Of a stretch of DNA of 64,000 nucleotides, positions 4,337 through 62,624 are shown piece after piece; the first letter of the stretch is position 1; each line of letters begins with the position of its first letter. Under the pieces are notes generated by a model that saw only the letters and a program-made list of their open reading frames with translations, made no database searches and had not been told where the DNA came from. Source of the DNA: a virus; the IMG/VR virus record IMGVR_UViG_3300021440_000014, positions 32,001-96,000 of that record; one strand, 5' to 3'. The translations under genes were made by a program, and so were the position numbers.

Positions 4337-5078
4337 TAGCCGCTTTTTGCGTAGCTACTTCAACTTTATCTTCAACTGGCTTTTGTTCTGGATTTTTATT
4401 AAGCCCAACCGTGTCAGCTAATACATCAAAATCTTCTTTGTTTTCAATTCTTCCAGTATACCAAGCAGTAACCAAAAGAAGCATTTTTCTAGCGAGATTG
4501 ATATAGAAATCATCATCTCTCTCAGCAAAGTCATCATAAGTTTTTAACTTAGTTTTATAGTCTCCTTCACCGAAAAACGGTTTTTCGTTTTTAAAGAAGG
4601 CTAACTGGAATAGCCACCACAAAACAGTTTTATTTCTTGAGATAGTTTCAGCCGTGTGCTCATACAAAGACTGTTGTGAAGATTCTATGCTTTGGAGGAT
4701 TCCTCTTAAGTCAGAGATTTCATTAATAATTGCATTAATTTTATCCTTTTCTTCTTTAGTTCTTTCGTCTTCCTTTTTAAGAGACAAAGCCTGATACTCA
4801 GACTCTTTAGCTTTAATGAGTCCAACAGACTCAATATAAGTTTCTTTGTCTTTTTGGGAAAGCGTTCCTAATTCATCTGCGAATTTTACAGCCAGTTGAT
4901 TTCTAGTTAGCAGCCCTTCTTTAATGCAATTAGAAAGCGCGACGCCATAAAACATCTCTTCCTCTTCGAAAAGAACACGATTAGGTTTTCTTAAAAAGAG
5001 TTCAATTGCCTCGTATTTGTCTTCACCTTTTTCGTTTTTTACTTTTTTATAAGCCGTGAATTCGTATAATTTTTTCAT
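4329..5078 (-). CDS. Putative tail assembly chaperone (coiled-coil)
   Basis: Between tail-tube and TMP genes; helical and charged. Confidence 0.5.
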   Translation of the reverse strand: MKKLYEFTAYKKVKNEKGEDKYEAIELFLRKPNRVLFEEEEMFYGVALSNCIKEGLLTRNQLAVKFADELGTLSQKDKETYIESVGLIKAKESEYQALSLKKEDERTKEEKDKINAIINEISDLRGILQSIESSQQSLYEHTAETISRNKTVLWWLFQLAFFKNEKPFFGEGDYKTKLKTYDDFAERDDDFYINLARKMLLLVTAWYTGRIENKEDFDVLADTVGLNKNPEQKPVEDKVEVATQKAANE

Positions 5079-47853: not shown

Positions 47854-47987
47854 GTGCTCAATTTATCAAGGGCCAATTAAAAAAGCAACGATAGAATTTT
47901 GTAAAAAATCGCATTAAATTAAAAGTTGGCGCGAAAATTGTTTTAAAAAATTGTTGACTTGCGCTCCCTTTGTGTTAATCTTAGCGC

Positions 47988-48059
47988 GTGAACGGGACGC
48001 CGCAGCCACTAAATTCTAAGGGAACCTGATCAAAAACTTTAACGTTATCGTAAAAAAGT
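47988..48059 (+). ncRNA. Repeated small RNA candidate, copy 1
   Basis: TTGACT-16-TAATCT promoter, then GAACGG..CCGCAGCC..AAATTCTAAGGGAACC..CTTTAACG. Confidence 0.6.
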
Positions 48060-48098
48060 AAAGGAAAACCCTCTTTCGAGGGAATTCCTGCTTGACTT

Positions 48099-48248
48099 TT
48101 AAGTTGTGACAAGATCCTGTTCGGTGAAAAACTTTTCAGCCTGTTGATCGAGCCACGCCTCGAATTCCGTTGTTTCTTCCGGCGTCATTTTTGCCAGCGT
48201 GGAGATTTCGTCTTGAGCGTCGATAGATTCAAATTGATTGATATTCAT
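48099..48248 (-). CDS. Small acidic protein (49 aa)
   Basis: Hand translation MNINQFESIDAQDEISTLAKMTPEETTEFEAWLDQQAEKFFTEQDLVTT. Confidence 0.6.
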   Translation of the reverse strand: MNINQFESIDAQDEISTLAKMTPEETTEFEAWLDQQAEKFFTEQDLVTT

Positions 48249-48310
48249 TACGGGTAAAATTTAACGTGCCCATAATAGAATAGCAATAAAAATCGTATTT
48301 TATCATAAAA

Positions 48311-48360
48311 TAAATTTTCATGCCATTCTATAAATAAAAATGACTTGGCACAAAGATTGC
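48311..48360. promoter_or_regulatory. TGCCA-N20-TGGCA palindrome 3
   Basis: TGCCA 48321, TGGCA 48346; TTGGCACAAAGATTGC is a near-perfect sigma54 -24/-12 site. Confidence 0.75.
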
Positions 48361-48465
48361 TATCAAAAATAGTTTCAAAAATAATCAAAAAACTCTTGCG
48401 CTCCTTTTGTGATCTGCTAGGATGTTCTCCGTTAAGCGAAACAACAACAAAGCAAAACAAAAAAA

Positions 48466-48939
48466 ATGAACACTGAAACAAAGCAAATTCTCGCGGAAAT
48501 GGGATTCAACGTTGGTTCTGTCCTGAATGTTCGCCGATCTCCTTTTCTAGGGTTAGAATTGACAATTCGGCCAAATGGAACGGGCACCGTCGTTTTTTGC
48601 AACGGTGGATTGAGCGAGTATCTTTTTCTTGCTCAATATGGCGCGGTGAAACCGCCAGTGAACGACGACGATGAAAGCATTCTTGAGAACATCAAAACCG
48701 TTGCTAATGGCATTCCCTACTTGACGATATCAAAATACAAATTTTTGCAAGTTCTCGAAGCAATGGCATTCAATCGGCTTTGCTTGACTGGCGCGGACAA
48801 AGGCAAAAAAGGAGGTTCGGTAGCTAAGTCTAAACGTCTCGCCGCTCTTTGGTTCAAACGTATCCCAAAGGAGGAAAACGAATTTTACAACGCGAAAGTC
48901 ACGACGGACGCAATGGAATCTGAGCTTATCGCCAGCTAG
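48466..48939 (+). CDS. Hypothetical early protein
   Basis: A-rich leader; hairpin terminator at ~48959-48990. Confidence 0.7.
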   Translation: MNTETKQILAEMGFNVGSVLNVRRSPFLGLELTIRPNGTGTVVFCNGGLSEYLFLAQYGAVKPPVNDDDESILENIKTVANGIPYLTISKYKFLQVLEAMAFNRLCLTGADKGKKGGSVAKSKRLAALWFKRIPKEENEFYNAKVTTDAMESELIAS

Positions 48940-49032
48940 AAACGTGCCAAACCAAAAGGAAAGCCCGAAATAAAAATCGGGCTTTCTTTCCTTTTCTATT
49001 GACTCCGCGCAAAGATTTGATATAGTCATGAC

Positions 49033-49108
49033 GTGAACGGTAAACACTCCGCAGCCACGAAATTCTAAGGGAACGTATCCAAAAGCTTTAACGATAACTT
49101 GATAAAGT
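49033..49108 (+). ncRNA. Repeated small RNA candidate, copy 2
   Basis: TTGACT-16-TATAGT promoter; same conserved core. Confidence 0.6.
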
Positions 49109-49170
49109 AGATTTTACAAAAAAAGTATTGACAAACGACTTTTTATTAGTTGTCAAGTCTTTTATGAAAA

Positions 49171-49220
49171 ACAATTACTGTGCCAACCATAGAAAGAATC
49201 GCGCTTGGCATGAAATTTGT
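49171..49220. promoter_or_regulatory. TGCCA-N20-TGGCA palindrome 4
   Basis: TGCCA 49181, TGGCA 49206. Confidence 0.7.
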
Positions 49221-49271
49221 TTTTTAGATTTTTATTGCCTATCATCAAATGCCTGCTATTATAGGGACGTA

Positions 49272-50165
49272 ATGAAAAACAACGTCGCTGAAATCATCGC
49301 CGATAAATTTATCGAAGCGATCAAAGCAAGCGGAAAATTGCCTTGGCAAAAACCTTGGCGCGTAATTAGTCCGCGTAATGCCGTCTCTGGTAATGTTTAC
49401 AAAGGGATCAACGTTCTAGCGTTGTCCATGTTTGGAAACGATACCGACTTTGTGACATTCAACCAAGCAAGGGATAACGGCGGATTTGTTAAAAAGGGAA
49501 GCAAGGGAATTCAAATTTGCTATTTCAAATTCATGGACAAAAAAGACGAAAAGGGATCGCCTGTCATTGTTGGCGGTAAAGTTAGCAAATGGCCATTGTT
49601 GCGATATTCGACAGTATTTAATCTTTCGGACATTGAAGGATGCGAAAAGCTCAAGGCAAAAGCATTGGAGCGAAAGAAAGTTATCGAATTCAAACCTATC
49701 GAAGCTTGCGAAAAGCTTGCTGCATTTGCGCCTTGCGCCGTATCGCACAAAGGGAATTCAGCTTTCTATTCGCCTGCCGTTCATGCAATAACAATGCCCG
49801 AAAAAGAGACTTTTAAGAGTGTTTCTCATTATTATTGCACGTTGTTTCATGAAATCGGACATTCAATGGCGCGAGAAGTTGGAACGGATTTGAACGGCCA
49901 ATTTGGGAGCGATCCGTATGCAAAGGAGGAACTTGTGGCCGAATTATTTGCCAACCTTTGCTTGTCGTTTGCTGGTATCGACTCAAGCGATCTTTTCGAT
50001 AACTCCGCAGCATATTTGCAGAACTGGCAAAAGCGGATCACTGACGATGCCACGATCCTTATTTCGGCAGCAAGCAAGGCAAGCAAGCGATTTGAATTGC
50101 TTTTAGAGCGGGCAGGACTCGCCGAAAAACAGGAAAGCGAGGAAAGCGAAACGGCAGCAGCCTAA
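49272..50165 (+). CDS. ardC: ArdC-like antirestriction/ssDNA-binding protein with zincin domain
   Basis: PWQKPW, N..SG..YKGIN, TFNQA..GG.VKKGSKG, VFN, AFYSP, HEIGH, YAKEELVAE, SAAYLQNW; start revised to ATG 49272. Confidence 0.92.
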   Translation: MKNNVAEIIADKFIEAIKASGKLPWQKPWRVISPRNAVSGNVYKGINVLALSMFGNDTDFVTFNQARDNGGFVKKGSKGIQICYFKFMDKKDEKGSPVIVGGKVSKWPLLRYSTVFNLSDIEGCEKLKAKALERKKVIEFKPIEACEKLAAFAPCAVSHKGNSAFYSPAVHAITMPEKETFKSVSHYYCTLFHEIGHSMAREVGTDLNGQFGSDPYAKEELVAELFANLCLSFAGIDSSDLFDNSAAYLQNWQKRITDDATILISAASKASKRFELLLERAGLAEKQESEESETAAA

Positions 50166-50241
50166 CAAAAAGGGGAGGAGAAAACCTCCCCTTTCCCTTG
50201 TTTATATTTGACATTTAATAAAAACAACCTAGAATTTTCTC

Positions 50242-50799
50242 ATGCCTAAATACTACCACGGCACAAGCGCGGACAATCTGCAATCTATTCTCGAAAATGG
50301 GTTTGACGGAACGAAGGGGAATCAAATTTGGAACGTATCAGGTGGGGCGAATTACTTCTGGAACCCCTTGGATATTCAAGAAACGGAAGACGTAGACGCC
50401 GAAAGAGCGGAAGAGATGGCAAGGGAATTTGCCTTTGGGGCGGCGGAAACGTCTCTTGCCAAGTCTAAAGATTGTCGGCGTGTCGTCTTTGAAATCGAGG
50501 CACCGGACGATCTTTTCTCGCCTGATAACTCTTGCCCTAACATGCAAGGGGCGGTCGTAAGCGATGAAATCATCGATCCAAGCTATATTTCGCGCTACTG
50601 GATAGATGAGCAAGATCTTTCTTTCTTTCGCGCATATTTCGCCGCTTGTATTCATGACAGGAAATTGGCGAACCCTTTGAATCTTTCAAGCGCAGAATTA
50701 AGTATGATCAAAGCCTTGCAAAAATCCGATGCAATGTGCGAAATCATGGACTCGCTTTCTGATATTACTTGCGAAGCTCTGGAAATTAAATTGAAATAA
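50242..50799 (+). CDS. ADP-ribosyltransferase-fold protein
   Basis: YYHGTS...SILENG start, then VVFEI and IDPSYI. Confidence 0.55.
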   Translation: MPKYYHGTSADNLQSILENGFDGTKGNQIWNVSGGANYFWNPLDIQETEDVDAERAEEMAREFAFGAAETSLAKSKDCRRVVFEIEAPDDLFSPDNSCPNMQGAVVSDEIIDPSYISRYWIDEQDLSFFRAYFAACIHDRKLANPLNLSSAELSMIKALQKSDAMCEIMDSLSDITCEALEIKLK

Positions 50800-50837
50800 A
50801 ACTTGTTATTTAATAAAAATCAAATAGAATTAACTCA

Positions 50838-51200
50838 ATGAAAACATTCAACCTTCCCGCTCCTCAATTTCTTTTCAACTATATTGCGAATCACCTGTTG
50901 ACGCAAAACAAAGTTTCGGCGAATTCTGAGGGAAGATGCCGCTACCGTCAGGGCGATCTTAAATGTGCCGCTGGCGCGATTATTTCCGATGATGTCTACG
51001 ATCCTAAAATGGAGGGGAAAAGAGCAAGATCGCCTAGACTTCATGAGGCTTTTATTTCCAGCCTCGGAAGGGACATTAGCGGAGAGGAAATGAATATAAT
51101 TTCAGATCTGCAAATAATGCACGACACTCAAAAGCCTTGGAATTGGAAAAATGATCTTAAGTATTTGGCGAAAAAATACTCTCTTACCTTTAATCTCTAG
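50838..51200 (+). CDS. Hypothetical phage protein (CRYR..KCAAG..LQxxHD)
   Basis: Putative metal-binding motif; own promoter. Confidence 0.7.
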   Translation: MKTFNLPAPQFLFNYIANHLLTQNKVSANSEGRCRYRQGDLKCAAGAIISDDVYDPKMEGKRARSPRLHEAFISSLGRDISGEEMNIISDLQIMHDTQKPWNWKNDLKYLAKKYSLTFNL

Positions 51201-51425
51201 TTGACTTTTCGCAAAAATAGAGTATTCTATATTTGCGGTTAAACACGAAATGCTCGATTAACAATATATTCGCCATGAATAAAGACCCGCCCGCTTAACC
51301 CAAAAATGGCTCATTATAGATATATGATTAAAAATTAAAGCAAAAAAAATAAATAGTCAACAAGAAAGGATTTTTATGAAGAGTTAACATATTTGCCAGC
51401 CTAAAAAGCTGGCATTTTTTATTTG

Positions 51426-51453
51426 TTGACATTGAATAAAAATAGTATAGAAT
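51426..51453 (+). promoter_or_regulatory. Representative early sigma70-type promoter (leaderless)
   Basis: TTGACA-16-TAGAAT, 6 nt before ATG 51460; more than 30 similar sites in 43.5-64 kb. Confidence 0.85.
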
Positions 51454-51459
51454 TTAACC

Positions 51460-51756
51460 ATGAACACTCAAGAAGCAATTAAGCACCTTGAAAGTCTAGG
51501 GTTCAAGATTTATCCTAAAGGCGACAAGTTCGCGATTTGGTGGCCGAATCAAAAGAATAATGACGAAGATTTTCGCTATACTGCGCGAAAACTTATTGGA
51601 CTGGCAAAGCTAAAATGGAATAATAAATCTAATGGCAATCGCTACCTCAAGAAAAGAATGATGGATTTTCCCTGTAGAAGGGGTCATGGCAGATTCATTA
51701 AAGATGCCACTAAGCGAAAATCTCGGCGCGATGCTAAAAGGATTGACTTGGAATAA
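51460..51756 (+). CDS. Hypothetical basic protein
   Basis: Own promoter. Confidence 0.7.
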   Translation: MNTQEAIKHLESLGFKIYPKGDKFAIWWPNQKNNDEDFRYTARKLIGLAKLKWNNKSNGNRYLKKRMMDFPCRRGHGRFIKDATKRKSRRDAKRIDLE

Positions 51757-51776
51757 AAATAGAGTAGGATTTAGGC

Positions 51777-52175
51777 ATGAAACTAACCTTGTCACTTCTA
51801 ATGCTGGGGATCGTCTCTGTTAGTGCTAAATTGCCGGATAGGTTTACCAAAGCCATTCACAAGGTAGAGGCAAGCGGGAAAGTCGGCCCTATCTTGGGAG
51901 ACTATAACAAGAAAACGGGTGAGTATGAAGCTCTCGGCCCTTTGCAGATTCATCGTGAATACTGGCAGGATTCGGGCGTGGCGGGAAGTTATGAGCAATG
52001 CAAGGATCTGGAATACTCTAAGAAAGTCGTTGAAGCTTACTTGTTGCGCTTTGGTCGTAAGTTTGTGCAGGCTAATAACTTCGAGGCAATGGCGCGAATC
52101 CATAACGGTGGACCATTGGGATTCAAAAACCAAAAGACAATTCAATACTGGCAAAAAGTAAAAAAGCATCTGTAA
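51777..52175 (+). CDS. Secreted lysozyme-like protein (i-type/destabilase or SLT-like)
   Basis: Signal peptide; AIHKVEASG, GPLQIHREYWQD, ARIHNGGP. Confidence 0.8.
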   Translation: MKLTLSLLMLGIVSVSAKLPDRFTKAIHKVEASGKVGPILGDYNKKTGEYEALGPLQIHREYWQDSGVAGSYEQCKDLEYSKKVVEAYLLRFGRKFVQANNFEAMARIHNGGPLGFKNQKTIQYWQKVKKHL

Positions 52176-52240
52176 CCTTGACAAAAAATAAAAATAAAGT
52201 AAGATAGAAAAGTAGTAAACGAAACAACAAACAAAAACAA

Positions 52241-52501
52241 ATGAAAAAAGTTGAATCCTATAAAGCTGAAGACGGTCGCCTCTTTGAAGATAAGGAAGAA
52301 TGCTTGAAGCATGATTTCCTTCTGTCGGTGCGCGGCTTCATTCAGACGAAGAACAGCAGCAAGTCGCCGACAATTCAGGTGAGCGATGTCGCGGCGTTGA
52401 TCGCGAATAACTTCCCCACATTCTACGACATGATGAAGCGGCAGAATCAGCTTCTCGTTGCTGCGCGGCCTAAGAAAGAAATGCCGATGCGCGTTGTCTA
52501 A
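52241..52501 (+). CDS. Hypothetical protein
   Basis: YKAEDGRLFEDKEECLKH motif; promoter upstream, terminator downstream. Confidence 0.75.
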   Translation: MKKVESYKAEDGRLFEDKEECLKHDFLLSVRGFIQTKNSSKSPTIQVSDVAALIANNFPTFYDMMKRQNQLLVAARPKKEMPMRVV

Positions 52502-52592
52502 TTTCCTTTGTTGTTTGTTTTCACCCCACCTAGTTGAAAAATTAGGTGGGTCTTTTCTTGACATCCTATAAAAAAAATATAACATCTTAAAA

Positions 52593-52859
52593 ATGAGTGA
52601 ATTCAATGTTTTCCATTATCTTTTTTATGCTTTGGAATTTGATGAAACTTCTGACGTTTTAGAGCATAACGGAAATTTCTGTCAATTGGCCTGCATAGAA
52701 CATCCTTTTGATGGGATTATCTTTTATGTCCTTCTTATCAATGGAGCGGTATCGAACACAACGGAGCATAAGTCAAGAATGGGAAAGCTTTTAAAAGAAT
52801 GGAGAGCGGGCGAAAGAGAAATAGACAAAGGCATTTTAACGCTTTCTTATAAAAAATAG
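52593..52859 (+). CDS. Hypothetical protein
   Basis: Own promoter TTGACA-16-TAACAT. Confidence 0.6.
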   Translation: MSEFNVFHYLFYALEFDETSDVLEHNGNFCQLACIEHPFDGIIFYVLLINGAVSNTTEHKSRMGKLLKEWRAGEREIDKGILTLSYKK

Positions 52860-52896
52860 TTCTTTACTTTTAAGAAAAACAAAGTAGTATTTATCT

Positions 52897-53085
52897 ATGG
52901 CAATACAAGAAGCTCTCTATAAATACTTCTCACTCATTGGAATGAGTGCTGAATTTGAAGAGGCTGGAAAGATTGGATTGGCAAATCAATGTCGTTGCAT
53001 TGCTCAGTCAGTGGCCGAAGAATTTGAGTTGACAGAAAAGGAAATCTCAACTGGAATTTCAGAAGATTTTCATAAATTAAAATAA
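52897..53085 (+). CDS. Hypothetical protein
   Basis: Own promoter TTTACT-16-TAGTAT. Confidence 0.6.
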   Translation: MAIQEALYKYFSLIGMSAEFEEAGKIGLANQCRCIAQSVAEEFELTEKEISTGISEDFHKLK

Positions 53086-53315
53086 CTCTTTACTTCTGAT
53101 AAAAATAGATTAGCATTTAACCATGAGAACGAAATCTTTAGGCGGAACTTTGTTAGTGATCAAAGGTCTTAACGACTGTGCCACAATCGAACGAGGCAAA
53201 AATTCCAAGCCGTGCATTGTCTCTATAGAAGGAACTTGGACAAAAGAAGAGTTAAGAGAGGCTCTCTCCTTATGGAATAGATCGGAAGCTCAAAGGAGAT
53301 AAAAAGGGTTTAGCC

Positions 53316-53504
53316 ATGACAAAACAACAAGACATCTACAAATTTTTCCGAATCATTGCAGTAGGTAGTCGCAAAGGCTGGCGAATTTATGACAACGGAG
53401 AAAACTATCACCCTACTACGGGAAGATGGCAGGCATTCCGACATGGAGTTAGAATTGGGAATTCAACAAAATCTGGGCTACTCCAAATGATTGATAATAA
53501 ATAA
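53316..53504 (+). CDS. Hypothetical protein
   Basis: 62-aa ORF, co-oriented with neighbours. Confidence 0.55.
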   Translation: MTKQQDIYKFFRIIAVGSRKGWRIYDNGENYHPTTGRWQAFRHGVRIGNSTKSGLLQMIDNK

Positions 53505-53543
53505 AAACCTTTACTTCCCATAAAAATAGTCTATTCTACAAAT

Positions 53544-53600
53544 ATCGAACGGTAGCCAACCCGCAGCCGAAAAATTCTAAGTGAACCTGATCTAATTTTT
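53544..53600 (+). ncRNA. Repeated small RNA candidate, copy 3 (3'-divergent)
   Basis: TTTACT-16-TATTCT promoter; GAACGGTAGCCAACCCGCAGCCGAAAAATTCTAAGTGAACCTGATC. Confidence 0.55.
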
Positions 53601-53634
53601 TAGATGAAATAAAAAGGGGCACTTGCCCCGTGTT

Positions 53635-53775
53635 TTACTCATCTCGATAATCATCGGCCTCGTTTGCGTTGAAATCGGCCAAGTCATCGGTGCCGCTACC
53701 ATCTCCCGGCCAACCTTTATCGTCGTCGGGCAATTCGGTTTGCAAGTCGTAATTATCTTCTAGTCCTTCATCCAT
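53635..53775 (-). CDS. Very acidic 46-aa protein
   Basis: MDEGLEDNYDLQTELPDDDKGWPGDGSGTDDLADFNANEADDYRDE; TTGACA-16-TAGGAT promoter. Confidence 0.75.
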   Translation of the reverse strand: MDEGLEDNYDLQTELPDDDKGWPGDGSGTDDLADFNANEADDYRDE

Positions 53776-53809
53776 AATTTAATCCTATACTATTTTTATG
53801 TTTTGTCAA

Positions 53810-53992
53810 TTACGGAAAATACAAAGTGGGGTTATCGTATTCGGGATCATACTTGGCAACTTGTGAATTCTCAAGGTGCCCCTGCTCTTTGAGTTTGGCA
53901 ATCCAGCGTTCCACCCTTTCCTGCTCTACAGAGTCAGCAAAGAAAAGCATCGCAACCAATTTTTTCGGATTGTGTTCTGTTTTAACTGGCAT
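53810..53992 (-). CDS. Hypothetical protein
   Basis: Own promoter TTGACT...TAGTAT. Confidence 0.7.
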   Translation of the reverse strand: MPVKTEHNPKKLVAMLFFADSVEQERVERWIAKLKEQGHLENSQVAKYDPEYDNPTLYFP

Positions 53993-54203
53993 GTCTAAAT
54001 ACTAAATCATTTTTCTAAAAAGTCAAATGCAAATTGATGTTTGACAAAAAGGAAAAATAGAATAAACTTTCTACAGTTGAACATCGGAACGGTTGGCGCA
54101 TTGCGTCGCCACAATAACGGAATCGGACTTCCTGCTTAGTAGATAGAAAGAAAGAGCTTGACATTCAAGCAAGGTAACTGTTAAAGGTTCAACTACTAAT
54201 TTT

Positions 54204-54467
54204 ATGGCTAAACTTAATCTTGACTCAATCGAAAATCGCGCTATAGTTACGGTTACAAATTTGCCTTGGGGCGACGATGATACTGGCAAAACTTCCCTTC
54301 AATTGACGGGTCAACTTGAGAAAGCGGAAGATGAAGGGGAAGATCATTACTTGCGTTGCCCTACGTTTTGCGGGGAACTTAATGGCGTTTCGTTCTCAGA
54401 TAAGGATATAACCGAAATTGAAACTCTACCTAGTGGCAGAATTCTTATCGTCTTGCGAAACTTTTAA
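54204..54467 (+). CDS. Hypothetical protein
   Basis: Promoter upstream. Confidence 0.65.
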   Translation: MAKLNLDSIENRAIVTVTNLPWGDDDTGKTSLQLTGQLEKAEDEGEDHYLRCPTFCGELNGVSFSDKDITEIETLPSGRILIVLRNF

Positions 54468-54505
54468 TTGACTTTTAGAAAAAATACTCTAAACTCTTAA
54501 TCGTA

Positions 54506-55045
54506 ATGAATAAACAACTCATCGAAGCTCTCGAAAATCAGGGAACAAACTGCCGCTTGATCTCTTTCACCTATACGGCTAAGGGGACAGGCGAAACGGC
54601 TCGCTACGTGATTCGCACGAATGTAGACTATACCAAGGTATGCAAAGACGACATCACGGAACTTGAAATCCGCGCACAAACGGCAATCGGTATCGAAAAA
54701 ATTTGCATTGACGCGCAGATCGCTACGCTTAAAGAGTCGATCAAGGCTCAGGAAACGGGCGTGGCTCACTCGAAATACACTAAAGCGGGACTCTATCGCT
54801 CTGTTTGTCCCGGTATCAAATTGAGCTTGAACGATCAAAGCCTTGAATTGCACGGCTTTGTGCATTCTAAGGTGGTTCTAAAGCCGGGATTCTATGCGAA
54901 AGTAAATCATCGCTCAGAAGAGACGGCAAAGAAAGAAGAGATTCGCAAGTCTCTCAAGGTTGGCAAGTTCCGCTCTTTCTCGCTCGATAGCGGGCTTGTT
55001 CACGGCGCAAAGGTAAACGGGGAAGAGATTACTTTTGAACAGTAA
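54506..55045 (+). CDS. Hypothetical phage protein
   Basis: Promoter upstream; terminator ACCCGGA-GTAAAA-TCCGGGT at ~55053-55077. Confidence 0.75.
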   Translation: MNKQLIEALENQGTNCRLISFTYTAKGTGETARYVIRTNVDYTKVCKDDITELEIRAQTAIGIEKICIDAQIATLKESIKAQETGVAHSKYTKAGLYRSVCPGIKLSLNDQSLELHGFVHSKVVLKPGFYAKVNHRSEETAKKEEIRKSLKVGKFRSFSLDSGLVHGAKVNGEEITFEQ

Positions 55046-55392
55046 ATAAACAACCCGGAGTAAAATCCGGGTTTTTTCTTGCTTTTAGATAAAAACAAAG
55101 TAGAATCTTCTCAATGGCAACACCAATTCATTGCGGGAAAGCTACTAAAATATATCGCAAGGTATATCAGCAGGCTTTCTACTATCGAGATAAAAATGGC
55201 AATCGTAAGTTTTCGCCTTGTAGCTACGAAGTCGGCTTTCAATGCGTAGTCTGTAAACAGATTCGCATTCCTGATATTTAAAAGCCTTTCGATAGATCAG
55301 ACATGGAAAAGATGGATGCTATTAGAGAAGAAGGAATTAAATTTGACGAAAGTTTGGCTTGCAATTAAATAAAAAAAGAATAAGATTTAACT

Positions 55393-55668
55393 ATGAAACT
55401 TACACTCTCCTATCTTAAAGCTTCCGAAATCATTGCGGACCGTCACAATCTCAGCGGCTATCAAGTAGAGATTGAGCCTAAGCCTATAATCGAAGGTAGT
55501 CAAACTAAACCTATCTTTCCACTTCACCAATTGATTCTTTTAGTGCGCGGCTATCGCTATCGTGGCGATGAAAAGATTGCAGCTATCAAAGCAGTGCGAG
55601 AATATGGGAATCGGTATGGAGTGTCAATTGGTTTGGCCGACGCAAAGAATTTTGTCGAATCGCTCTAA
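55393..55668 (+). CDS. Protein with ribosomal L7/L12 C-terminal-like domain
   Basis: KIAAIKAVRE...IGLADAKNFVE matches the bL12 CTD motif KIxxIKxVR...GLKEAKxxVE. Confidence 0.8.
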   Translation: MKLTLSYLKASEIIADRHNLSGYQVEIEPKPIIEGSQTKPIFPLHQLILLVRGYRYRGDEKIAAIKAVREYGNRYGVSIGLADAKNFVESL

Positions 55669-55712
55669 TTATTTGCCTTGCAATCGACTAAAAATAGTCT
55701 ATCATAATCAAT

Positions 55713-55994
55713 ATGAAAATCAAGGTTGCTCTTACTAAGTCGGATGGGAAGTATTCGCCTAATAGAGATCCTCTTACCGATTGCCTTGTTGCCCGCGCAT
55801 TAAAAAGAGCTTTGAAGCGAGACAAGATTAAGTATTCACGCATTACGGTAGGACTGGTATCTGTAAGGATTGATGATAAGGTAGTTTATCTTAATGATAC
55901 TATCGTAACTCTGATACATAAATGGGGTGAATTTGACGCAATAAGGAAAGATTTTATCCCTCCGCGCATTAGCTTCACTTTGGAATTCAACTAA
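55713..55994 (+). CDS. Hypothetical protein (DCLVARAL motif)
   Basis: Own promoter. Confidence 0.7.
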   Translation: MKIKVALTKSDGKYSPNRDPLTDCLVARALKRALKRDKIKYSRITVGLVSVRIDDKVVYLNDTIVTLIHKWGEFDAIRKDFIPPRISFTLEFN

Positions 55995-56551
55995 ATGAAA
56001 AAATGGTTTGCAATCTATCGTGAAACTTACGGCATTACCGTTAAGTATCTAGGCGAATTTGAGACGTGCCCGAATCATTTGGATGAAGGCTATTTGGATA
56101 TCGTCGATGCTTTTGAATTACGGGCTTTCAAAGAGTCTATAATCAATTGTCTTGTGGTTTATGCAGATTAGTTTGACTTTTCCTAAAAATACCTCATAAT
56201 AACAACGATGAAAACAAAAATGACAATTCGCGCCCGCCGCATTATGTTTGGTTTCTCCCGAATGGTTATCTCTGTCAAACGCTAAATGAATAAAATCCCG
56301 CTAAAATATATGGAATCAAAACCTGTTCACATTAAAGTCGAGGAAAAGCTGACAAAGAAAGAGTTTCTCGTAATATGGATTTTGCTGGTTATAGCGCGTT
56401 TTCTGTGCGAAGATGAGCAAACCAAGAAAGAGATCGGCGACATTAAGACTCATATTTATTTGCACACTAGATAATATGGGATTCTTTGTTCTCTGTTTAT
56501 TACTTTTGGTAATAGCGTTTTCCTTTTACTTATTTTCTTAAGTATTTATAT

Positions 56552-56628
56552 TGGCCTGTAGCTCAATTGGTTAGAGCAGAGCACTCATAATGCTTTGGTT
56601 CTCGGTTCAAGTCCGAGCAGGCCAACCA
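56552..56628 (+). tRNA. tRNA with CAT anticodon (elongator Met or Ile2)
   Basis: TGGCCTG/CAGGCCA acceptor, loop CTCATAA, GTTCAAGTC, CCA. Confidence 0.92.
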
Positions 56629-56676
56629 ATTTAAGTTTGACTTCTTAGAAAAAAAATGCTAACATCATAAACACTT

Positions 56677-56753
56677 GCTTCCGTAATTCAATTGGATAGA
56701 AATTTTGCCTTCTAAGCAAAAAGTTATAGGTTCAAATCCTATCGGAAGCACCA
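56677..56753 (+). tRNA. tRNA-Arg(TCT)
   Basis: GCTTCCG/CGGAAGC acceptor, TTTGC-CTTCTAA-GCAAA, CCA. Confidence 0.92.
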
Positions 56754-57136
56754 ATTTTTCTTTACTTAATCTAAAAAACATATATCATAAAAATATGAAA
56801 GTAACCTCTGAACCAATTACTGAAAAAGAAGAATTTCCTTTTATTGGCTTCTACACACTTAGCAAAGGGGACGGCTTGTTCTTGTTACAGGATATGGAGC
56901 AAATAAATCTTTCTATAAAGGAATAATGATTACTCCAAGTGATGTTTATAAAGCTTTTGCATATGATAGTGATCATTGGGACAAAAACACAATAAAACGA
57001 TTTAGAGGCAAAATTACAATCGAGTGCCCTTAATTTATATTATTGACTTCACGCAAAAATCTGTTAGATTAGTAACGTTCTTTGATGATTTCTAATTATT
57101 AGGTGTAATAGTAGATATAAGTTAATATCTGCTATT

Positions 57137-57694
57137 ATGCCAATATGTAAAAAATGCAACAACAAGTTTCCGTGTAAAATTACCTTAAATGGTAAAGAAA
57201 AGTTTTTACATACTAGATCTTACTGTTTAGATTGCTCTCCATTAGGTAAAAATCTAGGCTATGATTTAAGAAAAGAATCGAACGATAAGAAATATATTGA
57301 TTTATTCCAAAAAGAAGGAGTAATAAAATGTAGAATATGCGAAAGATCTTATCTAAGGAAAAAGAAAAACAATTTAATATGTTCTACTTGTAGGAATTCT
57401 TATTTTAGATTTAATCAAAGAAATAAAGCGATAGATTCATTAGGCGGGAAATGCTCTAAATGCGACTGCAAAGATAAAGAAGTATTACAGTTCCACCATA
57501 CAGATCCAAATCAAAAAGATTTTAATTTATCTGGCAACTGGTCACAAAAAGAATGGTTGACTTTAGAAAAAGAAATAGTAAAATGTATTTTATTATGTGC
57601 TAACTGCCATTCTAAAGAACATCGAAAAGACTTAACAAAAATCATTGAATTTTATGGGCAAGTGGCGAAGTTGGATGAAACGCAGCAGACTTAA
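57137..57694 (+). CDS. Free-standing HNH endonuclease
   Basis: Several CxxC; LGGKCSKC...LQFHHTDPNQK...KCILLCANCHSKEH. Confidence 0.9.
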   Translation: MPICKKCNNKFPCKITLNGKEKFLHTRSYCLDCSPLGKNLGYDLRKESNDKKYIDLFQKEGVIKCRICERSYLRKKKNNLICSTCRNSYFRFNQRNKAIDSLGGKCSKCDCKDKEVLQFHHTDPNQKDFNLSGNWSQKEWLTLEKEIVKCILLCANCHSKEHRKDLTKIIEFYGQVAKLDETQQT

Positions 57695-57744
57695 AATCTG
57701 CTACATAAGAAACACCGTGGGTTCGATCCCCACCTTGCCTACCA
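57656..57744 (+). tRNA. tRNA-Leu(TAA)
   Basis: GGGCAAG/CTTGCCT acceptor, GCAGA-CTTAAAA-TCTGC, long variable region, GTTCGATCC, CCA. Confidence 0.9.
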
Positions 57745-57753
57745 TTTTAATAT

Positions 57754-57872
57754 TTACCCGTGCTTATGCTAACCGAGAAGACTTTAGGGTCAACAAGTGT
57801 GAGAGAGCACAACTGAACACAAGTAGGTTCCTATCGAAAGGAAACGAGTAGAAGGACTCTCGCAGCGGGTAA
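57754..57872 (+). ncRNA. Unknown structured RNA
   Basis: Closing helix TTACCCG../..CGGGTAA enclosing three hairpins. Confidence 0.5.
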
Positions 57873-57883
57873 CTCAATTTAGT

Positions 57884-58004
57884 GGATACGTGGCGGAAAA
57901 TAGACGCAGCATAGTGTATAACTTGCACGGATAAGTAACCTATACTATGACAGAGGGAGAACGTGTATGAACCCTCATGCAAGTGTCAAACCTTGCCGTA
58001 TCCA
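57884..58004 (+). ncRNA. tRNA-like RNA with enlarged anticodon and variable arms
   Basis: GGATACG/CGTATCC acceptor, Leu/Ser-type D arm, GCAAG/CTTGC T stem. Confidence 0.6.
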
Positions 58005-58046
58005 TATTCTATTTGACATTTAGTAAAAATATCATATTCTTTAGAT

Positions 58047-58286
58047 ATGAAATACATAGCTTTTGAATGCAATGGGCAGGTGATGCCAATTCTGTTTGCA
58101 GATCATACGGATCATTCAATGATTGCCCGCTGTGTCAAATCAGAATATCCCGGCTATAAGGTTAAATCCGCTGGTTTTGCGGGGCGCAATGGATCTGTAT
58201 GGGGCGAATCAGTTTCGCTTAGAGTCAAGTCCGATGTCGAAGATGAATTTTACATAAAAAGAATTTTGGGCATTGACATTGATTAA
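58047..58286 (+). CDS. Hypothetical phage protein
   Basis: MKYI...PILF...H...SAGF...GESVSL pattern; own promoter. Confidence 0.75.
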   Translation: MKYIAFECNGQVMPILFADHTDHSMIARCVKSEYPGYKVKSAGFAGRNGSVWGESVSLRVKSDVEDEFYIKRILGIDID

Positions 58287-58311
58287 AAATAAGTTAAACT
58301 CTTTATCTAAC

Positions 58312-58387
58312 GCGCTTATAGCTCAATTGGTAGAGCACGACACTTTTAATGTTGTGGTTTCGGGTTCGAGTCCCGATGGGCGCACCA
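58312..58387 (+). tRNA. tRNA-Lys(TTT)
   Basis: GCGCTTA/TGGGCGC acceptor, CGACA-CTTTTAA-TGTTG, CCA. Confidence 0.92.
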
Positions 58388-58429
58388 ATTTAACATTGAC
58401 TAAAAATAAAAATAAGCTAGGATAGAACT

Positions 58430-58615
58430 ATGGAATTCACTGAAGCTCAAATCAGCAACTTCAAAGCTTACGAAAAAGTCCGTGCGAGCGGCAAATATAA
58501 TATGTTTGATCCTAGAGCTATACGAGCGTCTGGATTGCCTCAGAGCGAATACATTTTCGTTATGGATAATTATACTGCATTGGAAGCGGCGGCAGCAGAA
58601 CAAATAGCTAACTAA
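58430..58615 (+). CDS. DUF5049-like small protein
   Basis: VRASGKYNMFD...NY..L motif. Confidence 0.65.
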   Translation: MEFTEAQISNFKAYEKVRASGKYNMFDPRAIRASGLPQSEYIFVMDNYTALEAAAAEQIAN

Positions 58616-58617
58616 TT

Positions 58618-58794
58618 TACTCATAGGTATAATAACAAGCAGTCCCATGCGGGATGAATGACAACCGCCAATCGTCATGGCGACAAATCAGCGGCTCCAT
58701 TATGACGAAAGAATGGAGTAAAGCGGCTTATTGGTCGCGAAAAACACCTAGAGTATGCCGTGAGAGTAAGCCTGATAAGGGAAGAAATCACGGC
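58618..58794 (+). ncRNA. Unknown multi-stem structured RNA
   Basis: TACTCATAGGT/ACCTAGAGTA closing helix, three inner stems, then a GCCGTGA/TCACGGC hairpin. Confidence 0.55.
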
Positions 58795-58837
58795 TAAATT
58801 TTCTTTACTTCTAATAAAAATAACTTAACCTTAAATC

Positions 58838-59104
58838 ATGGCTGAATTATTCAAAGTCTTGTTTGGTCGCTCTAAAAAGAGAATGAAAACCATCATGGTT
58901 GATAAATATCAAAAATGCGAGAATTACGTTCTTGCCCGCAGTAATGTTTTGGGTTTTCATGAAATTGTTAAAGCAGAAAAAGGCGAAGAGACTTGGAGGC
59001 AAAAATCCGCCACTGTAGGCGGCAATCGTTGTGAATCTGTCGGGCGGGTAGGCAAAGGCGCAAGTGGTTATATCTCAAAAAACGGCTTTAATCCTCATAC
59101 TTAA
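58838..59104 (+). CDS. Hypothetical protein
   Basis: Own promoter. Confidence 0.65.
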   Translation: MAELFKVLFGRSKKRMKTIMVDKYQKCENYVLARSNVLGFHEIVKAEKGEETWRQKSATVGGNRCESVGRVGKGASGYISKNGFNPHT

Positions 59105-59106
59105 AA

Positions 59107-59261
59107 TGAAATTCGCTCTTTACTTTTTACTTGGAGCAGCTTTAGCTTTAATGGGTTTTCCAATCTTTCCAAAAGAGGGATTCAATATCGTAAATTTTCT
59201 AATACTAATTCTTTGTATGCTTATCCTTAAAATTATTCTCGGCGAGAAAAACGAAGAATAA
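59107..59261 (+). CDS. Small two-TM membrane protein (MKFALYFLLG...)
   Basis: Two hydrophobic stretches; start approximate. Confidence 0.5.
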
Positions 59262-59296
59262 TTTGACTAATCAAAAATAAATGGTATTGTATATCC

Positions 59297-59371
59297 AACG
59301 AGCGGTAAACAACCCGTAGACGTAAAATTCTAAGGGAACCTGCCCAAATAGCTTTAACGTCATAGTAAAGT
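59297..59371 (+). ncRNA. Repeated small RNA candidate, copy 4
   Basis: TTGACT-16-TATTGT promoter; GCGGTAAACAACCCGTAGACGTAAAATTCTAAGGGAACC..GCTTTAACG..TAAAGT. Confidence 0.6.
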
Positions 59372-59975: not shown

Positions 59976-60968
59976 ATGGCTCATAAAATCAACAAACGCG
60001 ACATTCAAACCGGACTCACTCAAGCGTGGCATGGCAAGACTAACCTTGTGGAAAAGATTACCCGCGAGAATAGCGGCATCGTTTATCCCATGAGCAAGCA
60101 ACCTCTCTTGCTTCCCAACAAGACAGAAACGGAACATTTTGCAATCGTTAGCGACGACGACGGTTTGCCAATTGGTAATCCTGTTAAAAAGGGTTACAAG
60201 CTCATTACTAATGAGCAGATGCTTGACATTATCGACAAAACCATTGCCGGAACAAGTCACCAAATTGTTTCCATCGGTTCCGTTAGTAATCGCGAGAAAG
60301 TTTTCGCCTCGATTAAGGTATCAGATGATTTCATCGCGGCGGGACGCAAGACAGAGAATACCCTAAACATTCTTTGGGGTCATGGCGGTGTGTTCAGCGT
60401 CATGGGTCGTTCTAGCTTTACTGTCGTCGTTTGCGCGAATACCTTTCAAATGGCTTTGGTTACGGGCGGAAAAGATTTTGCCTTTCGCATGAAGCATACC
60501 GGCAACGCTGTATTGAAACTGGATAACTTCTCAGAAGCTCTCGATTCACATTACGGCGTAGTTGCTGAATTCCGCGCAGCAATGGAAGAGTTTTCTAATA
60601 CTTCCATTTCTAAAGTTGATGCAAAACGCGCAATTGCAGGCTTTCTTGTCGAAGACGAAAAGCTTAATCAAATGCAGAAATTGCCTACTCGAACAACTAA
60701 CGTCATTGAGCGCGTCAATCAGTTGTTTACTGGTGGTCCCGGTAACAAGGGCGAAAATCTTGCTGACTTGTTCAATGGTTTTACTGATTACTATACCCAT
60801 GAAAGCTCTGGAATTGGTAGTGGCGGGAAAGATAACTGGAAACAGTTTGAATCATCGGAATTCGGAAGCGCGAATCGTAAGAAAATGGAAGTCTTCGATC
60901 TTCTCTCTGATTCCGATGCTTTTAATAAGACACTTGTGCGCGGCGACAAGGTTTTGCAGCTAATGTAA
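59976..60968 (+). CDS. DUF932-family phage/plasmid protein
   Basis: AWHG, YKLITNEQ, VVCANT, MKHT, LFNGFTDYYTH, FGS. Confidence 0.85.
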   Translation: MAHKINKRDIQTGLTQAWHGKTNLVEKITRENSGIVYPMSKQPLLLPNKTETEHFAIVSDDDGLPIGNPVKKGYKLITNEQMLDIIDKTIAGTSHQIVSIGSVSNREKVFASIKVSDDFIAAGRKTENTLNILWGHGGVFSVMGRSSFTVVVCANTFQMALVTGGKDFAFRMKHTGNAVLKLDNFSEALDSHYGVVAEFRAAMEEFSNTSISKVDAKRAIAGFLVEDEKLNQMQKLPTRTTNVIERVNQLFTGGPGNKGENLADLFNGFTDYYTHESSGIGSGGKDNWKQFESSEFGSANRKKMEVFDLLSDSDAFNKTLVRGDKVLQLM

Positions 60969-61961: not shown

Positions 61962-62624
61962 ATGAAATTCTCCTTCACTCTGGTTTCTCAAAACTCAAAA
62001 ACTGGTCCTATCCCTGTGACCGGAACAAGTAAGGACTCTTGCCCCGATGCTTGTCCGCTTAAGAATAACGGATGCTATGCCGCGAGCGGACGCTTGAACA
62101 TTCATTGGACTCGTTTAGAGAGCAAAGGATTAAACCTTGCCCAGCTTACGGAAAAGATTAAATCTATTCCTAGCGGTCGTTTGTGGCGACACAATCAGAT
62201 GGGCGACTTACCGGGAAAGAATGACAAGATCGACGGCAAAGCGGTAAACTCGATTGTTGAGGCTAACAAGGGGCGCAAGGGATTTACTTATACCCATTAC
62301 GATCCTTCTATCGGCAAGAATGCTTCAATCGTCAAATCCGCTAATCAAAATGGTTTTACGATTAACCTTTCCGCCGACAATCTAAGCGAGGCTGATACGT
62401 TCTCCGATATGGGAGTCGCGCCGGTCGTAACTATCTTGCCAAGCGATCAAAAGGGTAACACTGTTACACCTAAAGGGCGCAAGGTGGTAGTCTGTCCTAA
62501 CTATACTCATGGAGTGCAATGCATGGATTGTCAGCTTTGCCAGCGGGCAGATCGTAGCGTAATCGTCGGCTTCCCCGCTCATGGAATTTCGTTCAAAAGA
62601 GTAAATCAAATTGCAAAACAGTAA
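61962..62624 (+). CDS. Cys-rich putative Fe-S protein (Gp88-like/radical-SAM-like)
   Basis: NSKTG, CPDACP..GCYA, RHNQMGD, YTH, CP..CxxCxxC, FPAHG. Confidence 0.65.
   Translation: MKFSFTLVSQNSKTGPIPVTGTSKDSCPDACPLKNNGCYAASGRLNIHWTRLESKGLNLAQLTEKIKSIPSGRLWRHNQMGDLPGKNDKIDGKAVNSIVEANKGRKGFTYTHYDPSIGKNASIVKSANQNGFTINLSADNLSEADTFSDMGVAPVVTILPSDQKGNTVTPKGRKVVVCPNYTHGVQCMDCQLCQRADRSVIVGFPAHGISFKRVNQIAKQ

What the first reader, a model, noticed from the sequence alone, without database searches (positions are those of the whole stretch)
47988..59371. Four dispersed, separately promoted copies of a ~70-nt small RNA
Seen: at 47988, 49033, 53544 and 59297 the same element starts 6-7 nt after a sigma70 -10 box: GARCGG-(4-8 nt)-CCGYAGMC-nnnAAATTCTAAGKGAAC-...-CTTTAACG...AAAGT. 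The CGG/CCG stem is kept despite loop indels, and a 3' stem (GCTTTA/TAAAGT or ACTTT/AAAGT) is present in three copies. Reading frames are not conserved, so it is not a peptide. Known: phages use RNA decoys such as ToxI mimics and solitary CRISPR-repeat anti-CRISPR RNAs. Inference: a high-dose, diversified early decoy RNA family aimed at a host defence or RNA-binding protein.
Basis: partly seen in the sequence, partly recalled or inferred. Interest (0 to 1): 0.8.

Follow-up and report, generated by a model that had tools for sequence, protein, structure and literature searches.

The report
New promoter-proximal phage small RNA family
Four short, separately promoted RNA genes in the early region of an uncultured 172-kb phage belong to a widespread structured RNA family absent from Rfam 15 and from the searchable papers, which often sits next to a phage gene of unknown function (DUF932); what the RNA does is still unknown.

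Summary
The window, and the whole 172-kb phage genome, has exactly four copies, all on the + strand. Each starts 6-7 nt after a sigma70-like promoter.

- a 3-4 bp outer stem (P1);
- an invariant A;
- a purine that covaries with a pyrimidine as A.C or G.U;
- a variable hairpin (P2);
- Y-A-G-M;
- the returning P1 strand;
- an invariant tail, AAUUCUAAGKGAAYCU.

I found 174 covariance-model matches (at least 107 distinct sequences) in other phage and metagenome contigs. Covariation is very strong. No Rfam family matches, and only one true copy turned up in 185,579 prokaryote species genomes.

The only recurrent neighbour is a DUF932 gene, which has no recognisable fold. It is the one protein shared with five otherwise unrelated element-bearing phage fragments, and 28 of 84 metagenome loci carry it. 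Two near-complete element-bearing phage genomes, and a third 87% complete, lack it.

The ToxI and CRISPR-repeat mimicry idea found no support. There are no host arrays, and the model does not match phiTE pseudo-ToxI.

Best reading: a new phage small RNA recognised by a protein, possibly DUF932. The earlier scan had noted only this same stretch, not the element on other DNA.

The parts
47954..47981 (+). Promoter of copy 1 (TTGACT, 16-nt spacer, TAATCT)
   Evidence: Read. It ends 6 nt before P1.
47988..48031 (+). Copy 1 core: P1 GTG/CAC, AA, P2 CGG-GACG-CCG, CAGC, tail AAAUUCUAAGGGAACCUGAUC
   Evidence: Covariance model, 50 bits; parse.
48032..48060 (+). Copy 1 3' extension with CUUUAACG and a local ACUUU/AAAGU stem
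   Evidence: The stem is not conserved in relatives. The hairpin at 48069-48082 scores as a terminator only for the converging minus-strand 49-aa gene.
48999..49026 (+). Promoter of copy 2 (TTGACT, 16-nt spacer, TATAGT, with TG before the -10)
   Evidence: 10 of 12 matches.
49032..49108 (+). Copy 2: P1 CGTG/CACG, AA, P2 CGG/CCG, CAGC, tail, then CUUUAACG and a GCUUUA/UAAAGU stem. It is probably the 5' leader of the ArdC-like gene, whose ATG is at 49164.
   Evidence: Covariance model, 68.8 bits. I saw no convincing promoter between it and the ATG (read; one search lists none). Pfam finds ArdC-N plus MPTase in the downstream gene.
53510..53537 (+). Promoter of copy 3 (TTTACT, 16-nt spacer, TATTCT)
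   Evidence: Read.
53545..53637 (+). Copy 3: core 53545-53592 (P1 TCG/CGA), local hairpin AUCUAA/UUAGAU, then a bidirectional intrinsic terminator at 53616-53629 plus a U tract. This is a stand-alone RNA of about 93 nt that converges on minus-strand genes.
   Evidence: Covariance model, 69.1 bits. The terminator is listed on both strands.
59263..59290 (+). Promoter of copy 4 (TTGACT, 16-nt spacer, TATTGT)
59298..59371 (+). Copy 4: P1 ACG/CGT, AG, P2 CGG/CCG, UAGA (the G.U form of the wobble pair), tail, then CUUUAACG and a GCUUUA/UAAAGU stem
   Evidence: Covariance model, 70.5 bits.
59976..60968 (+). DUF932 gene (330 aa), 630 nt downstream of copy 4 on the same strand; the recurrent neighbour of the element in other phages
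   Evidence: Pfam PF06067, E 3e-20. Linkage is shown.

Best explanation
The four elements are genes, or 5' leaders, for a previously undescribed family of small structured phage RNAs.

Host RNA polymerase starts at a sigma70-type early promoter, and the first transcribed bases form P1. The 5' end is therefore locked in a short hairpin. That hairpin carries a conserved asymmetric internal loop: an A on one side, A-G-M on the other, and next to it an A.C or G.U wobble pair. An invariant, probably single-stranded 16-nt tail follows (AAUUCUAAGKGAAYCU).

The helices covary freely, while the loop and tail never change. From this I infer that the RNA works by being recognised sequence-specifically by a protein, not by coding and not as double-stranded DNA.

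My preferred partner is the phage's own DUF932 protein. The RNA would be its ligand: a subunit, a substrate or a feedback operator. Several copies made at once from strong early promoters would supply that ligand.

Shown here: the structure, the promoter placement, the spread of the family and the linkage to DUF932. Inferred: transcription itself, protein binding and the identity of the partner.
For: Structure:
- On 107 distinct sequences, 97.6% of pair cells are standard pairs, against 60.2% in shuffles.
- 175 cells changed on both sides, against 37 in shuffles.
- Covariation score is 0.68, against 0.13 in shuffles and at most 0.084 for slid registers.
- The purine after the invariant A pairs with Y of YAGM as A/C 70, G/U 30, A/U 4, G/C 1 (Fisher p 8e-21), spread over 21 and 17 different P1 contexts.
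- A4, A56, G57 and AAUUCUAAG.GAA are invariant or nearly so.

Promoter:
- 54% of 78 elements have at least 9 of 12 matches to TTGACA/TATAAT, ending 5-8 nt (mostly 6-7) before P1. The figure for random positions is 3%.

Stand-alone unit:
- Copy 3 ends in a bidirectional terminator shared with converging genes.

Spread:
- 174 covariance-model matches in 86 sources, with up to 10 matches in one 11-kb locus (L339).
- 84 metagenome loci hold the extended motif.
- Only one true copy in 185,579 species genomes.
- No Rfam family matches.

DUF932 link:
- DUF932 is the only G000 ORF with a BLASTP homologue in two or more of five other element-bearing phage fragments, and it is in all five.
- 28 of 84 metagenome loci (361 kb) carry it.
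- A same-strand element lies 157-372 nt upstream of its start in about 15 loci.
- Element-linked DUF932 proteins cluster on the tree: 6 label changes, against 16.9 in shuffles.
- A nested DUF932 subclade has a different repeated, promoter-linked element (GGUGACAA) in the same position.
Against:
- Two near-complete element-bearing phage genomes (G006 at 100%, G007 at 96%) and G008 (87% complete) have no PF06067 match, so DUF932 cannot be an obligatory partner.
- Of 79 phage loci chosen for DUF932, only six phage groups carry the element.
- The linkage could therefore be inherited synteny of early regions rather than function.
- The DUF932 model (pLDDT 89.9) has no recognisable RNA-binding or any other known fold.
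- Most family members have no canonical terminator, so 3' ends are undefined.
- The tail is only moderately unpaired in thermodynamic folds.
- Wobble counts do not tell which strand folds: G.U 5 against A.C 4. The strand assignment rests on the promoters alone.
Confidence: 0.4

Rival explanations
1. Decoy or sponge. The RNAs are made in bulk early in infection and soak up a host RNA-binding defence or housekeeping protein that recognises the loop and tail.
For: There are many copies with strong early promoters. The location is an anti-defence-type early region with an ArdC-like gene. Loop and tail are invariant, as expected for a protein site. Elements persist in phages without DUF932. A related 31-nt core forms a tandem array at the end of contig L153, which looks like an antitoxin array.
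Against: No host counterpart was found. One true copy turned up in 185,579 species genomes, and none in an array. The motif and its complement occur only at chance level in 101 Patescibacteria genomes. There is no match to phiTE pseudo-ToxI. No candidate target is known.
Confidence: 0.25
2. Cis-acting leader. The nascent RNA stays with, or marks, its own transcript. It would modify elongation (put-like antitermination) or protect the 5' end from decay, for early transcription units.
For: The element always sits at the very start of the transcript, with the 5' end base-paired. Copy 2 probably leads into the ArdC-like gene, and many elements lie 157-372 nt upstream of DUF932. Window-clade copies carry CUUUAAC, which from memory resembles the E. 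coli boxA core (lead only).
Against: Copy 3 is a closed unit that ends in a terminator facing converging genes. 44 of 132 elements have no ORF of at least 60 aa within 600 nt. DUF932 in L250 and L251 has its own promoter between the element and the ATG. Convergent element pairs are common. An invariant 16-nt tail is not needed for 5' protection.
Confidence: 0.15
3. Base-pairing small RNA. The invariant tail is a seed that pairs with a conserved host or phage RNA.
For: The layout (5' structured domain, conserved single-stranded stretch, variable 3' part) is that of many trans-acting small RNAs. Y and R variation at three tail positions would keep pairing with G or U.
Against: The phage genome has no complement; window matches with 3 mismatches are at chance level. 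The complement is only at chance level in 101 bacterial genomes. G or U at position K has no common pairing partner. The conserved internal loop is not explained.
Confidence: 0.1
4. DNA-level signal. The 16-bp box would be an operator or promoter element, or the hairpin would form in single-stranded DNA, as once proposed for STAXI.
For: Inverted pairs of the box, 27-55 bp apart, occur in several phages. The neighbouring genes (ArdC-like, DUF932) are typical of DNA-entry regions. In some subgroups a TGATAAA box follows at about 11 nt.
Against: Each member of an inverted pair has its own promoter and its own covarying P1 and P2. P1 and P2 covary at a fixed distance from the box in at least 107 distinct sequences. 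All four window copies, and 9 of 10 in L339, share one orientation. The promoter places the transcription start exactly at P1.
Confidence: 0.05

Closest known systems
STAXI (RF01728) and radC (RF01754) RNA motifs (Weinberg et al. 2010, PMC2864571)
   Same: Both are orphan structured RNA motifs of mobile elements. They are often repeated and lie next to antirestriction, SSB and other DNA-handling genes, and their function is unknown.
   Different: There is no sequence or structure match. STAXI is a tandem pseudoknot in Enterobacteria. This element is a single hairpin plus an invariant tail, each copy has its own promoter, and it occurs in uncultured phage and metagenome contigs.
ToxI and pseudo-ToxI (type III antitoxin RNA and its phage mimic, PMC3475682, PMC3401426)
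   Same: Both are short phage-encoded non-coding RNAs that could act on a protein. The related L153 sequence forms a 31-nt tandem array, within the 31-62 nt range of toxIN repeats.
   Different: The window copies are single and dispersed, each with its own promoter. The covariance model does not match phiTE pseudo-ToxI. No host arrays were found. The fold is a hairpin plus tail rather than a pseudoknot repeat.
HK022 put RNAs (cis-acting antiterminator RNAs; from my own knowledge)
   Same: Both are about 70-nt structured RNAs encoded directly downstream of early phage promoters, in several copies per genome.
   Different: put has two stem-loops and no long invariant single-stranded tail, and it acts only in cis. 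Here at least copy 3 is a closed unit ending in a terminator. No homology was tested because no put model is to hand.
RNA anti-CRISPRs / solitary repeat units (from my own knowledge)
   Same: Both are separately promoted, repeat-sized (about 36 nt from P1 to GAAC) hairpin-plus-handle RNAs in phages.
   Different: No CRISPR array with this sequence was found in the species-genome scan. The sequence after the 'handle' is also conserved, which is unlike a spacer.
The 'CAGCA-handle' RNAs linked to the DUF2828 (Ro60-like) protein, noted by this scan in the same phage (e1-5652424, e1-5652426; AI notes)
   Same: It is the same genome. Both are multi-copy small RNAs with a covarying stem next to a fixed short box containing CAGC.
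   Different: In those notes the box follows the 5' strand of the closing stem and encloses variable cargo. Here YAGM precedes the 3' strand and a fixed tail follows. DUF2828 is absent from G006-G008, which carry this element. I did not align the two families.

Membership tests
ToxI-type (type III) antitoxin RNA or phage pseudo-ToxI | Tandem direct repeats (31-62 nt, at least 1.9 copies) in one transcript | tested here: not met
   There are four single copies, 1 to 5.7 kb apart, each with its own promoter. The repeat ranges come from PMC3401426. Only the distant relative L153 is tandem.
ToxI-type (type III) antitoxin RNA or phage pseudo-ToxI | Sequence and structure likeness to a known ToxI or pseudo-ToxI | tested here: not met
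   Model R1, with filters off, gives no match at E up to 10 on the annotated phiTE pseudo-ToxI locus. I know ToxI itself only from memory.
ToxI-type (type III) antitoxin RNA or phage pseudo-ToxI | A cognate ToxN-like endoribonuclease in the host that the RNA neutralises | not testable with these tools
   The host is unknown. The phage has no PF13958 match, but that search's controls did not ring either.
RNA anti-CRISPR / solitary CRISPR repeat | Near-identity to the repeat of a CRISPR array in host genomes | tested here: inconclusive
   The species-genome scan with YAGM-N5-AATTCTAAGKGAAYCT found 3 single hits and no arrays. A repeat lacking the YAGM part would have been missed.
STAXI / radC and all other Rfam 15 families | A score against the family's covariance model | tested here: not met
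   No Rfam match overlaps any element, at the gathering threshold or at E up to 10 or 1, in the window and nine loci.
put-like cis antiterminator RNA | Acts in cis to carry polymerase through downstream terminators | not testable with these tools
   Context only. Copy 3 ends at a terminator that faces converging genes, which argues against this for that copy.
DUF2828 (Ro60-like) 'CAGCA-handle' RNAs of this scan | Co-occurrence with a DUF2828 gene | tested here: not met
   PF11443 is absent from G006 and G007 (near-complete) and from G008 (87% complete), all of which carry the element.
New family proposed here (P1, A, R.Y wobble, P2, YAGM, P1', AAUUCUAAGKGAAYCU) | All four window copies fit the structure and sit at a promoter | tested here: met
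   Covariance-model scores are 50-70.5 bits. Pair statistics are, the wobble covariation and promoter placement.

The most novel reading that the evidence does not exclude
The RNA and DUF932 form a previously unknown phage ribonucleoprotein or enzyme-substrate pair of the early, anti-defence stage. DUF932 is an orphan family that is common in phage early regions and (from my own knowledge) in the leading regions of conjugative elements. It would recognise the conserved internal loop and 16-nt tail. Different DUF932 clades would have swapped in different partner RNAs: the AAUUCUAAG type here and the GGUGACAA type elsewhere.
Probability: 0.25. Interest if true: 0.85.

Novelty: new variant of a known kind. 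Interest (0 to 1): 0.62.

Why it matters
Phage-encoded structured small RNAs with a defined fold are still few, and most known ones were found one phage at a time. This family has unusually clean comparative support: at least 107 distinct sequences, an isosteric A.C/G.U pair and a fixed transcription start. It has many copies per genome and lies in the earliest-expressed region, beside anti-restriction-type genes.

The family also gives the first testable lead for DUF932, a widespread orphan family of phages and, from my own knowledge, of conjugative elements. The lead is an RNA that travels with the gene. If the two interact, that would open a new class of early-infection RNA-protein systems. 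If they do not, the RNA is still a good candidate for a counter-defence decoy.

Tried and rejected
- **Rfam.** Searches at the gathering threshold and at loose E-values, on the window and nine loci, matched only tRNAs and noise.
- **Phage GenBank collection.** Megablast of 7 kb found no match.
- **ToxI.** Papers were read for repeat sequences, but none is held as text. pECA1039 is not in the plasmid collection. phiTE pseudo-ToxI was fetched and did not match the model.
- **Host repeat or target.**
  - The species-genome scan found one true copy.
  - 101 Patescibacteria genomes have the motif and its complement only at chance level.
  - Relatives cannot be drawn for a virus record.
- **tRNA-Arg(UCU) anticodon-loop mimicry.** Only 7 nt (UUCUAAG) are shared with the phage's own tRNA-Arg, which is too little to argue from.
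- **An 'anti-motif' hairpin in L049, L056 and L031.** This turned out to be a second, convergent element with its own promoter.
- **Conserved 3' hairpin or terminator across the family.** Tails fold no better than shuffles (median z -0.2). Strict terminators are found at the control rate.
- **DUF932 function.**
  - Foldseek against the PDB found nothing at E up to 0.001.
  - VIA-align's best match is Z 6.8, which is noise level.
  - There is no PDB sequence relative and no PADLOC match.
  - 13 papers mention DUF932, only as an annotation label.
- **DUF2828 (Ro60-like) as partner.** It is absent from the element-bearing genomes G006-G008.
- **Single-protein locus search.** With DUF932 alone it found nothing; the alignment-based search worked.
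- **MAFFT.** It could not align the variable hairpins, so the model was seeded from copies 2-4 only. Alignment A8 is therefore fitted to that structure.


Full report
**Where the window lies.** The window is bases 32001-96000 of a 172,010-bp IMG/VR virus record, rated complete. Structural genes fill the minus strand up to about 43 kb. From 43.6 kb the plus strand carries short early genes and five tRNA genes. No gene has a Shine-Dalgarno sequence. The early region is crowded with sigma70-like promoters: 58 found against 28.5 expected. Many have the form TTGACA, 16 nt, TAGAAT and end 6-7 nt before an ATG, which suggests leaderless messages.

**The observation.** AAATTCTAAGKGAAC occurs exactly at 48011, 49060, 53572 and 59325, always on the + strand. 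Nothing else matches with fewer than three mismatches. By pattern and by covariance model these are the only four copies in the whole genome, and there is no reverse copy. Each copy follows a TTGACT/TTTACT, 16-nt spacer, TAnnnT promoter that ends 6-7 nt upstream.

**Anatomy.** The full layout is:
- P1 (3-5 bp);
- an invariant A;
- a purine R;
- the P2 hairpin, of any length and sequence, often capped by a tetraloop;
- Y-A-G-M;
- the 3' strand of P1;
- one or two free bases;
- AAUUCUAAGKGAAYCU.

**Relatives.** The 15-mer and related patterns retrieved true members from IMG/VR contigs. The extended motif retrieved 84 metagenome loci, with up to 7 exact copies per locus. A covariance model seeded from copies 2-4 found 174 matches at E up to 0.001 in 86 sources, including ten in the 11-kb locus L339.

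**Covariation.** The figures below come from the 107 distinct aligned sequences.

| Measure | Observed | Shuffled |
|---|---|---|
| Pair cells that are standard pairs | 97.6% | 60.2% |
| Cells changed on both sides | 175 | 37 |
| Covariation score | 0.68 | 0.13 |

Slid registers score at most 0.084. The alignment was fitted to the model, which favours it, but the margin is large, and I had seen the same pairs by eye before any model existed.

The purine R and the pyrimidine Y covary as A/C (70) or G/U (30), with A/U 4 and G/C 1 (Fisher p 8e-21). Both classes are spread over many different P1 sequences. A.C and G.U are isosteric wobble pairs, so a particular geometry is being kept, not just a helix. 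A4, A56, G57 and the tail are invariant or nearly so.

**Is it transcribed, and from which strand?**
- 54% of 78 parsed elements have at least 9 of 12 matches to the sigma70 consensus placed so that the -10 box ends 5-8 nt (mostly 6-7) before P1. At random positions the figure is 3%.
- The RNA would therefore begin with P1.
- Wobble counts in the helices do not pick a strand: G.U 5 against A.C 4. The strand call rests on the promoters.
- I could get no expression data.

**Stand-alone gene or leader?** Both occur.
- Copy 3 runs into a bidirectional terminator (53616-53629) shared with converging minus-strand genes. That gives a closed unit of about 93 nt.
- Copy 1 faces a converging 49-aa gene. 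The hairpin between them scores as a terminator only for that gene.
- Copy 2 probably leads into the ArdC-like gene (ATG at 49164; ArdC-N plus MPTase domains).
- Copy 4 is followed by another promoter, small ORFs and then DUF932.
- Across the family, 44 of 132 elements have no ORF of at least 60 aa within 600 nt. Apart from DUF932, the downstream ORFs fall into small clusters or singletons.
- Canonical terminators are no more common than at random positions, and the 3' parts show no general structure.
- Convergent pairs of elements, each with its own promoter, are common. They explain the apparent 'anti-motif' I first saw.

**Neighbours.** This is the most informative result.
- In an all-against-all BLASTP of every ORF of the 172-kb genome against five other element-bearing phage fragments (19-60 kb each), exactly one protein had homologues in two or more of them. 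It was present in all five: the 330-aa product of 59976-60968, a DUF932 protein.
- Of the 84 metagenome loci (361 kb in all, many only 1-3 kb long), 28 carry DUF932.
- A same-strand element lies 157-372 nt upstream of the DUF932 start in about 15 loci, and within about 1.1 kb in several more. Some loci have a second, convergent element just past the gene's end.
- On a quick tree of 68 DUF932 proteins, the element-linked ones cluster: 6 label changes against 16.9 in shuffles. Metagenome rows were chosen through the motif, which inflates this.
- Inside the main element-linked clade, one subclade lacks this element. Instead it has two or three copies of another promoter-linked box, GGUGACAA, upstream of the gene.

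Limits on the link:
- Two near-complete element-bearing genomes, and a third 87% complete, have no DUF932.
- Most DUF932 loci have no element.
- In L250 and L251 the gene has its own promoter downstream of the element.

**What DUF932 is.** A confident model (pLDDT 89.9) shows an N-terminal alpha/beta domain and a C-terminal helical domain. It matches no solved fold and no PDB sequence. It matches no PADLOC defence-system model. The 13 papers that mention it use it only as an annotation label. Conserved Cys153, Asn155, His174 and Trp18-His19 hint at a catalytic or metal site, but that is inference.

**Tests of the mimicry idea.**
- The extended motif occurs three times in one genome for each of 185,579 prokaryote species. 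Only one hit is a true element, on a 24-kb contig of a Saccharibacteria bin that carries two elements and is probably phage DNA. None is in an array.
- The 16-mer and its complement occur only at chance level in 101 genomes of that phylum.
- The model does not match phiTE pseudo-ToxI.
- No Rfam family, including STAXI and radC, matches.
- The one array-like relative is a 31-nt tandem repeat at the end of contig L153, where every assembly breaks. What lies beyond it is unknown.
- Host-repeat mimicry is therefore unsupported, though a decoy role for some other protein remains open.

**Verdict.**
- I am about 90% sure this is a real structured RNA family that works as RNA. It is absent from Rfam 15 and from the searchable literature.
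- How it works is open. I rank the readings as follows:
  - ligand of a protein, most likely phage DUF932: confidence 0.40 for this reading as a whole, about 0.3 for DUF932 specifically;
  - decoy for a host protein: 0.25;
  - cis leader: 0.15;
  - base-pairing seed: 0.10;
  - DNA signal: 0.05.
- The closest known things are the orphan STAXI and radC motifs that sit beside antirestriction genes in mobile elements (PMC2864571). They are of the same kind but are not related.

Noticed in passing
window 50208-50242, 51426-51460 and other + strand genes between 50 and 62 kb: TTGACA, 16 nt, TAGAAT promoters end 6-7 nt before the ATG of many early genes, and no gene in the window has a Shine-Dalgarno sequence. 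This suggests leaderless messages and a host that favours them.
   Followed up: partly
L226-L247 (for example L226, about 50, 160 and 280 nt upstream of the DUF932 start at 5001): A sister clade of DUF932 genes has two or three copies of a different repeated box, GGTGACAA, upstream of the gene. Most copies follow a TTGACA promoter. The copy nearest the gene lies inside a GUUCG...CGAAC stem.
   Followed up: partly
L223:4631-4702: A twister-P1 ribozyme-like match (45.8 bits, E 6e-7, below the gathering score of 67.2) overlaps the start of the DUF932 gene of another phage.
   Followed up: no
L153:9903-10024 (end of contig IMGVR_UViG_3300009159_000321): A tandem array of a 31-nt unit (CAGCAAGGAAATTCTAAGGAATCTGATTGAG) is related to the core of the element but lacks its hairpin. 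All assemblies that hold the neighbouring gene break here.
   Followed up: partly
L007, L014, L032, L035, L043, L044, L060, L073, L074, L089: Ten loci from nine contigs, eight of them from one metagenome (3300045988), carry the same 15-mer in the loop of an AACATG/CATGTT hairpin about 20 nt after a TATAAT box, without the P1, P2 and YAGM part. The relation to the family is unknown.
   Followed up: no
L099 and L155 (contig IMGVR_UViG_3300029319_001300): Four copies of a palindromic box, CAGCTTAGAAATTCTAAGCC, occur in a 12.9-kb contig. It shares AAATTCTAAG but looks like a different element.
   Followed up: no
window 47960-47975 and 48398-48415: The spacer of copy 1's promoter (TGCGCTCCCTTTGTG) recurs almost exactly upstream of the gene at 48466, in front of a TAGGAT box (read).
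   Followed up: no
window 49164-50165: The gene after copy 2 combines an ArdC N-terminal domain with a zincin-like metallopeptidase (MPTase-PolyVal), a typical anti-restriction protein of conjugative elements.
   Followed up: partly
window 61962-62624: A DUF7227 protein (E 1e-87) has a 43%-identical homologue in the G001 phage locus L075.
   Followed up: no
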